From Heteronotia binoei (lineage: Eukaryota): a DNA stretch of 64,000 bases. Under the pieces are notes generated by a model. That model ran no database searches. It had not been told where the DNA came from and worked only from the letters and a program-made list of their open reading frames with translations. Of this stretch, positions 38,018 through 39,610 are shown one piece after another (positions within the stretch are counted from its first letter, which is position 1; every line of letters starts with the position of its first letter). The stretch is taken from NCBI RefSeq assembly GCF_032191835.1, contig NC_083238.1, forward strand, positions 34,596,001 to 34,660,000, written 5' to 3'. Both the position numbers and the translations under genes were made by a program.

Positions 38018-39610
38018 TTACTCTTCATCCCCTTCATCTACCATCTCTCACTGTCAGTCAGTGGTGGCATCCGGATGACCCATCATTCTTACAGGGTAAT
38101 TTTTCACCAGCATGAGCAGATCCTCAAATCCGGCCATTTCCTCATTGGTAGGGTCCTTGTCCAGATCAAGGCCTTCCTGTGCTGAGATGTAGCCTCAAAT
38201 CAGAGTATCAATCGTGTCCTTTTTTTTCTTGTCCTCCTGAAACCCTTTCCAATCCATCAGAGTTTTGTCTCCACATTAATAGTTTACCACATATGTATGA
38301 CACAGACTTATATCTTATAGACCATACAATCGAGAAATCACCTCTATATCCATAACATCGGTTGTTACTGATAAGCTGCAAGGCATGAACAGCATTTCTC
38401 CATTCTTCTGGATGCATTATTATAACTGTATACCAAGGGAAAGTTGGATGCTCATGCAAAGTTCTGGCAATAACATCCAGTGAAGTTAGTCCAGAGCCTG
38501 TTGCTTGGGCCAGACATATCCTGAATCTAATTAGGGATGCTGGAATGAAAGACAGCCATCTGCGGAAGACTCCTGCCACATTTCATCATCCTCGAGATGC
38601 CCAAATTTTCTCCAAGTTAGGCTAATATCAGTTCTGGTCAATTGCTCAGAAATTCCTGGCATAATAGAGGTCAGACTTTATTGTAAGTGTGACGATTTGA
38701 CCAAGGATATCACTCCTCTCAGAGCAAATGCTATTACGCACAACAACATAGTATAAATGGCTTGATGTCTGAACTGTTCCAGAATATACTGAGCCACAGT
38801 AGAGATGAATTGTAACTTTTGTGAGAGTGTTACACCTGTGACCCAGTCATTTTTGGCACTATCCCAAACCCTGATAGTATACTTAGTTGACTGATCAGTT
38901 TCTGATACCTGAGCAGTGCTTCGATAAGCATCAACAAACCACACTTGATCTCTGAGATTATTGACATCATCTAGGATTCACTGTAACTCGGTATAAGACT
39001 CCAGTGTATCTGACATCTGATCTTCCGGCAGATAGAGCATCTCCTGTATCAGTTGCTGTCTTCTCCCTTCAGGATGCTGTAGACGAAGACTGCAAATACA
39101 GACTGCTGTAACAAAATCATTGATATTCACTGCTGAGTCATTAACTCGTGATCTTGTGAAGGGGTGACATCCAGAGCATCTCCTGTATCAGTTGCTGTCT
39201 TCTCCCTTCAGGATGCTGTAGACGAAGACTGCAAATACAGACTGCTGTAACAAAATCATTGATATTCACTGCTGAGTCATTAACTCGTGATCTTGTGAAG
39301 GGGTGACATCCACTTGTCGCAAAATGCCAGGAAGAAGGCTGACTTTGTAGGGAAGAAGGTTGTCACCTACAGTGCACAGCGCCGTGAACACTTCAGCATT
39401 GTCAGCTGGACCAAATTTAACCACTCCTTTCCTTTTTGGCATGACAGGTAGCTGGCCTTGATTGCTGTCCCACCATGATGACTGCATTCCTCTTCCGGCT
39501 TGAATTGCATTTTGCTGGGCAAAGAATCTCATGGCACGGAATCTAGCCAACAGCCTCACATCTTGTGTACGGTCTGAATGAGAAACAGTGTCAAAATGAG
39601 GGTTGGACAT
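38018..39610 (-). pseudogene. Endogenous viral element: degraded chuvirus-like (Jingchuvirales) nucleoprotein gene
   Basis: ORFs 39266..39691, 38678..38944 and 38208..38579 join through stops and frameshifts. The result includes LAQATGSGLTSLDVIARTLHEHPTFPW..HPEEWRNAVHALQLISNNRCYGY..SIRYKSVSYICGKLL, resembling the conserved C-lobe of chuvirus N. No introns; not a transposon protein. Confidence 0.8.
39034..39311. repeat. Perfect 139-bp tandem duplication inside the viral element
   Basis: 39034-39172 is identical to 39173-39311. Confidence 0.95.

What the first reader, a model, noticed from the sequence alone, without database searches (positions are those of the whole stretch)
38018..39610. 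Endogenous chuvirus-like nucleoprotein gene fossilised in an LNPK intron
Seen: a codon-like, intronless segment unlike any TE, which reads across a few lesions as one ~480-codon protein: MSNPHFDTVSHSDRTQDVRLLARFRAMRFF...LCVIAFALRGVISLVKSSHLQ*SLTSIMPGISEQLTRTDISLTWRKFGHLEDDE/NVAGVFRRWLSFIPASLIRFRICLAQATGSGLTSLDVIARTLHEHPTFPWYTVIIMHPEEWRNAVHALQLISNNRCYGYRGDFSIVWSIRYKSVSYICGKLL/GDKTLMDWKGF..KKDTIDTLI*GYI..DEGDEE*. From recalled family knowledge, QAxGxGLT..HPxFPW..PEEWxN..NNxYYG(F/Y)..SxxYKS..LL is characteristic of chuvirus (Jingchuvirales) N proteins. Reptile- and fish-infecting piscichuviruses exist, and chuvirus-like EVEs have been reported in some vertebrate genomes. Inference: germline capture of a negative-strand RNA virus N gene in a lizard ancestor, inside the HoxD-adjacent locus. 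I cannot tell whether this locus is already described.
Basis: partly seen in the sequence, partly recalled or inferred. Interest (0 to 1): 0.92.

Follow-up and report, generated by a model that had tools for sequence, protein, structure and literature searches.

The report
Ancient chuvirus gene fossil in geckos
A broken copy of an RNA virus nucleoprotein gene sits in an intron of a gecko gene; related species carry it at the same place, so it may be an unusually old fossil of an already known kind of viral insertion.

Summary
Confirmed. Minus strand 39,610-38,018 is an intronless, broken nucleoprotein (N) gene of a piscichuvirus-like virus: 40% identical over 428 residues to Herr Frank virus 1 N, E 2e-77. 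In a quick tree it nests among vertebrate piscichuviruses. It lies in a 12.9-kb LNPK intron, on LNPK's strand, 170 kb from a Hox13 gene. Contigs of three other organisms hold it at 11-14% divergence, like the flanks; two join it to the same host flank, so it is an old inherited insertion. A second, independent N fossil lies 16.4 Mb away. Chuvirus N insertions are already published for lizards, Gekko japonicus included, so this is a new member of a known kind. The open lead: a leopard gecko protein model (LOC129323677) is its sister, differs like neutral DNA, lies on LNPK's chromosome and is open over about 480 codons. If it is the same insertion, it predates about 75 Ma, against 12-35 Ma published. 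I could not read that gene's position.

The parts
38018..39610 (-). Broken piscichuvirus-like nucleoprotein (N) gene, ATG to final stop, intronless; five internal stops and three frameshifts
39034..39311 (.). Perfect tandem duplication of 139 bp inside the N gene, absent from the three other organisms that carry the element (recent duplication or assembly artefact)
   Evidence: table 5
37942..37967 (-). A-rich tract (20 A of 26) starting 50 nt after the stop; possible decayed poly(A) tail marking the 3' end of the insertion (inferred)
39688..40492 (.). Conserved non-coding host element directly 5' of the insertion (5-7% divergence against 11-15% around it); bounds the insertion and leaves no room for an upstream viral gene
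47592..47810 (-). LNPK exon upstream of the host intron
34567..34672 (-). LNPK exon downstream of the host intron (intron 34,673-47,591, phase 1)
33680..33749 (-). LNPK zinc-ribbon exon (PF10058)

Best explanation
A non-retroviral endogenous viral element, now a pseudogene. A piscichuvirus-like negative-strand RNA virus infected a gecko ancestor; its single-gene N transcript was copied to DNA and inserted into an LNPK intron in the germ line, was fixed, and has since decayed like neutral intron DNA in this lineage. Shown: viral origin, chromosomal position, presence in other organisms, decay. Inferred: copying from mRNA by a host LINE reverse transcriptase (only N, short untranslated ends, A-rich 3' tract); no present function for this copy.
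For: Herr Frank virus 1 N: 40% over 428 residues, E 2e-77; 49% over 102 aa for the unbroken core. A profile of its three first relatives finds turtle, snake and fish chuvirus N at E 2e-138 to 5e-87. Tree: inside a 20-row clade with the vertebrate piscichuvirus N proteins, SH-aLRT 99. Model of the Herr Frank-cluster protein: best BFVD match Wenling fish chuvirus-like N, E 5e-23; 26 of 27 PDB rows shown are mononegaviral N. Contigs from organisms A and B join it to the same flanks. Divergence in the element 14.3/12.4/10.7% against 14.2/11.8/13.3% in the 3' flank. CpG observed/expected 0.30. Single copy at DNA level.
Against: No significant target-site duplication: the best candidate (12 of 14) was reached by 27 of 195 random stretches. 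No empty site was seen. PDB fold matches have E of 0.026 or worse and concern a relative, not the window copy. Pfam and PDB sequence searches of the pieces found nothing. The tree is the quick version (SH-aLRT only); the position beside Herr Frank virus has support 90 and is not firm.
Confidence: 0.9

Rival explanations
1. Extension of the best reading: the insertion is the same one as leopard gecko LOC129323677, so it predates the split of Eublepharidae from Gekkonidae; that lineage kept an open frame while this one lost it.
For: Sister pair, SH-aLRT 100, stem 0.48, tips 0.29 and 0.32; 61% identity, against 30-48% for the other 20 proteins tested. Identity nearly flat over conserved/intermediate/variable columns (68/66/56%) where Herr Frank N gives 77/39/22%. 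Mismatches fit neutral DNA change better than BLOSUM (+17.8 lnL) in this pair alone; the other 17 pairs score -52 to -96. Distance about 0.25-0.3, twice that of organisms A, B, F. Its contig has the same length (235,967,456) as the one holding Eublepharis LNPK. 4-7 stops expected on a neutral branch, none in the model.
Against: The RefSeq accessions of the two Eublepharis genes are 2,256 numbers apart, which does not suggest neighbours. A slight gradient remains (p 0.03). The Eublepharis protein leaves conserved residues as often as the broken copy (13 against 14 private departures), which argues against selection for N function; its tail departs from viral N; a gene model can hide breaks.
Confidence: 0.5
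2. The Eublepharis sequence is a separate insertion of the same or a very close virus, or a copy moved within the genome; the window locus is confined to a narrower group of geckos.
For: Distant accession numbers; repeated independent captures are the rule for this class (PMC11089739 Table 3: 23 reptile elements, 23 events); a second independent capture exists in this genome; an open frame is easier to explain if younger.
Against: Flat, neutral-looking divergence with equal private changes on both branches; same chromosome as LNPK.
Confidence: 0.4
3. Assembly artefact or contamination by an exogenous virus, or a host or transposon pseudogene that resembles N.
For: The perfect 139-bp duplication could be a local assembly error; no run of the window's own species was laid (best word share 0.08).
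Against: Many stops and frameshifts; junctions seen in contigs of other organisms and studies; named relatives are viral N proteins, apart from vertebrate gene models of unknown function in gecko and fish.
Confidence: 0.02

Closest known systems
Vertebrate chuvirus N-derived EVEs (Nino Barreat & Katzourakis 2024, PMC11521997; DIGS screen, PMC11089739)
   Same: N-only chromosomal fossils whose best viral match is Herr Frank virus 1 or kin; published for Gekko japonicus (3 entries), Sceloporus undulatus and Thamnophis.
   Different: No LNPK-intron locus and no Heteronotia or Eublepharis entry found. Published chuvirus orthogroups are from fish, snakes and marsupials, dated 11.9-35 Ma; this locus is shared by organisms 11-14% apart. 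Whether one G. japonicus entry is this locus could not be checked.
[quoted passage not shown]
   Same: 35-41% identity over 400-450 residues for the three tested; same clade; similar gene length (1,446-1,500 nt in turtle viruses).
   Different: No L, G or VP4 found with it; broken; on a long stem of its own, so from a lineage not among the proteins retrieved here.
Endogenous bornavirus-like N elements (EBLN)
   Same: Single N gene of a negative-strand RNA virus in a vertebrate chromosome; LINE-mediated capture is the recalled model; one squirrel copy inhibits its virus (PMC11521997 discussion).
   Different: Different virus order; no clear target-site duplication here; the window copy cannot encode full-length N.

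Membership tests
Non-retroviral endogenous viral element | Homology to a protein of a non-retroviral virus | tested here: met
Non-retroviral endogenous viral element | Joined to host chromosomal DNA | tested here: met
   between LNPK exons; contigs of organisms A and B cross the junctions
Non-retroviral endogenous viral element | Inherited: present at the same locus in related species | tested here: met
   3 of 4 runs laid hold it, 2 with a contig that reaches host flank
Non-retroviral endogenous viral element | Empty pre-insertion site in an outgroup | not testable with these tools
   run X5 covered only the conserved element; no outgroup genomes are served
LINE-retroposed viral mRNA | 3' poly(A) tail | tested here: inconclusive
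   20 A of 26 starting 50 nt after the stop; an A11 run follows the second copy
LINE-retroposed viral mRNA | Target-site duplication | tested here: inconclusive
   best candidate 12/14, matched by 27 of 195 random stretches; age may have erased it
Jingchuvirales / Chuviridae N protein | Sequence and fold closest to chuvirus nucleoproteins | tested here: met
   the fold was tested on the viral relative P0009, not on the window copy
Genus Piscichuvirus | L-protein identity above the genus cut-off and L phylogeny (criterion as described in 10.1101/2023.02.24.528524) | not testable with these tools
   no L sequence with the element; PF00946 search of the genome found none, with a stricter first look and no positive control
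Genus Piscichuvirus | Genome order L-G-N-VP4 | not testable with these tools
   only N was captured
Co-opted (functional) EVE | Open frame, purifying selection, expression | tested here: not met
   window copy: 8 breaks plus a duplication, divergence equal to flanks; expression not tested

The most novel reading that the evidence does not exclude
One piscichuvirus-like N insertion in the LNPK intron beside HoxD predates the Eublepharidae-Gekkonidae split (over about 75 Ma), making it the oldest dated chuvirus fossil in vertebrates that I could find, by a factor of two or more. It decayed in this lineage but stayed open over about 480 codons in the leopard gecko, where 4-7 stops are expected by chance, which would point to co-option of a chuvirus gene by a reptile. 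Orthology alone I put at about 0.5; the probability given is for orthology together with real retention of the frame by selection.
Probability: 0.15. Interest if true: 0.72.

Novelty: new member of a known kind. Interest (0 to 1): 0.45.

Why it matters
Piscichuviruses cause encephalitis in turtles (10.1101/2023.02.24.528524) and occur in snakes and a skink, but their time scale rests on few orthologous fossils of 12-35 Ma (PMC11521997). A near full-length N fossil anchored between an LNPK exon and a conserved element is easy to trace across geckos and gives a minimum age for lizard-infecting chuviruses: roughly 30-80 Ma from the divergences measured here under a recalled rate, and over 75 Ma if the leopard gecko gene is the same insertion. 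The open leopard gecko model makes co-option directly testable.

Tried and rejected
Pfam scan of 4 pieces: one weak hit below cut-off. PDB sequence search of the core: none. Rfam over 36.5-41.5 kb: none. ESM Atlas with P0001: no usable hit. Target-site duplications: not above chance for either copy. DNA similarity between the two copies: none, so the second copy is not a duplicate. Other DNA copies of the element or its 3' flank: none found. L-gene fossil: none found, weak search. The idea that the tail of P0001 follows another frame of the window copy: only a 5-residue match, score 24, not significant. The neighbouring LINE fragment (34,968-36,668, RVT_1) is not counted as part of the element. 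Paper searches for the accession numbers, for chuvirus + squamate + orthologous and for Lunapark + endogenous viral (no listed paper held 'lunapark') found no description of this locus. A citable Eublepharidae-Gekkonidae date was not found.

Full report
Observation. It is broken by a frameshift near 39,300, stops at 38,980, 38,680, 38,197, 38,056 and 38,050, and frameshifts near 38,584 and 38,275. It also holds a 100% identical 139-bp tandem duplication, 39,034-39,311, that was missed. Without the repeated unit it is about 484 codons long.

What it is. The 109-aa unbroken core found 3 proteins among 46 candidates: Eublepharis macularius LOC129323677 (P0001), an unnamed Logan protein and Paramormyrops LOC111838379. 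Each aligns to the window in three collinear pieces. A profile of the three hit 496 cluster representatives at E up to 0.001. [quoted passage not shown] Salarius guttatus piscichuvirus came. Herr Frank virus 1 N matches the window directly: 40% over 428 residues, E 2e-77. A model of the Herr Frank-cluster protein (pLDDT 79.9) has 31 BFVD matches at E up to 0.001, led by chuvirus N. PDB gives none at that level, but 26 of the 27 rows shown are mononegaviral nucleoproteins. In a quick 36-row tree (the careful search did not finish) the window copy lies in a 20-row clade with the vertebrate piscichuvirus N proteins (SH-aLRT 99); the grouping with Herr Frank virus is weak at 90. Genus membership rests on L and cannot be tested.

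Where it is. LNPK exons were located with recalled short motifs and confirmed by PF10058 and by a 72-aa exon that is 100% identical to Heteronotia binoei LNPK and 84-89% to four other geckos. The element lies in the 12.9-kb intron 34,673-47,591, on LNPK's strand. A Hox13 gene is 170 kb away. Directly 5' is a conserved non-coding stretch (about 39,690-40,490); 50 nt 3' of the stop begins an A-rich tract. A candidate target-site duplication is not above chance, 27 of 195.

It is inherited and old. I laid 4 of 24 listed runs. Organism A has one 3,380-nt contig running from 37,711 to 40,798, across both junctions, with some unaligned stretches. Organism B has a contig from 37,040 to 39,412, across the 3' junction. 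Organism F has short pieces over the element, none shown bridging a junction (the table was cut). The small run of organism D covered only the conserved element. None of A, B, F has the duplication. Divergence is 14.3, 12.4 and 10.7% in the element, 14.2, 11.8 and 13.3% in the 3' flank and 5-7% in the conserved element; these are lower bounds because of the 80% filter. The element therefore drifts like intron DNA. With a recalled neutral rate of 1-2 x 10^-9 per site per year this is roughly 30-80 My (inference).

A second fossil. G000:C16:51.035 Mb, 16.4 Mb away, holds another broken N gene, with no DNA similarity to the first and a separate place in the tree: an independent capture.

The leopard gecko sister. 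P0001 is 61% identical to the window copy and its sister at support 100. Their identity is nearly flat across conserved, intermediate and variable columns (68/66/56%), whereas the other 19 pairs shown fall steeply, for example 77/39/22% for Herr Frank N. Their mismatches fit neutral DNA change better than protein-level exchange by 17.8 log units; the other 17 pairs go the other way by 52-96. So both descend from nearly the same viral sequence. P0001 lies on a contig of the same length as Eublepharis LNPK, but the accession numbers are 2,256 apart and I could not read its position. If orthologous, the insertion is older than the 75 Mya that PMC13148402 gives for a split inside Phyllodactylidae (passage; gecko family topology recalled). 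Its model is open for about 480 codons where 4-7 stops are expected (P 0.015-0.001), yet it leaves conserved residues as often as the broken copy (13 against 14 private departures). That tension is unexplained: selection for an open frame, a younger separate insertion, or a gene model that hides breaks.

Mechanism. Shown: viral N origin, germ-line position, sharing among organisms, neutral decay. Inferred (about 0.75): reverse transcription of the monocistronic N mRNA by a host LINE, from the single-gene extent, short ends and A-rich tract; the recalled model comes from bornavirus N elements. No function is likely for the window copy.

What is known. PMC11521997 (passages, section 12, and supplement file 10 part 3 of 48 plus term searches) reports 92 chuvirus N-like elements, with three in Gekko japonicus and one in Sceloporus, and orthologies of 11.9-35 Ma. 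Heteronotia and Eublepharis do not occur in the 11 supplement files searched; one file was unreadable and four archives were too large, so the G. japonicus sequences were not seen and one could be this locus. PMC11089739 (passages and supplement search) counts 23 reptile chuvirus elements; its full catalogue is held elsewhere and was not seen. 10.1101/2023.02.24.528524 and PMC11170836 (passages) give the genome order and a skink piscichuvirus. Searches found no description of this locus.

Verdict. Real, correctly interpreted, a new member of a known kind. Its value lies in its probable age and in the leopard gecko lead. Interest 0.45.

Noticed in passing
L002:700-2010 (G000:C16:51,034,566-51,035,959, +): Second, independent broken chuvirus-like N gene, 46% identical to Herr Frank virus 1 N, at least 6 stops, followed by an A11 run near L002:2296.
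   Followed up: partly
window 39,688-40,492: Conserved non-coding element in the LNPK intron (5-7% divergence); a 14-Mb run covers only this stretch, as a capture target would. It may be a HoxD-landscape enhancer (recalled context, untested); the viral gene begins about 80 nt from it.
   Followed up: partly
window 34,968-36,668 (-): LINE reverse-transcriptase fragment (RVT_1, E 7e-28), about 1.7 kb, two long frames, in the same intron; CR1-like by recall.
   Followed up: no
proteins P0003 and P0175: Fish gene models (Paramormyrops LOC111838379, 526 aa, 'isoform X1'; Oryzias melastigma FQA47_008047) are chuvirus N-like open frames annotated as uncharacterised.
   Followed up: no
PMC11521997 file 10, row 65: The Sceloporus undulatus chuvirus N element is on chr1; Sceloporus LNPK is on a 383-Mb contig, probably the same chromosome. 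Any relation to either gecko copy is untested and unlikely at that age.
   Followed up: no
proteins P0002, P0004, P0007, P0011: Unnamed piscichuvirus-like N proteins from public run assemblies; P0004 and P0007 are among the nearest rows to the gecko pair. They may be undescribed viruses or expressed insertions.
   Followed up: no
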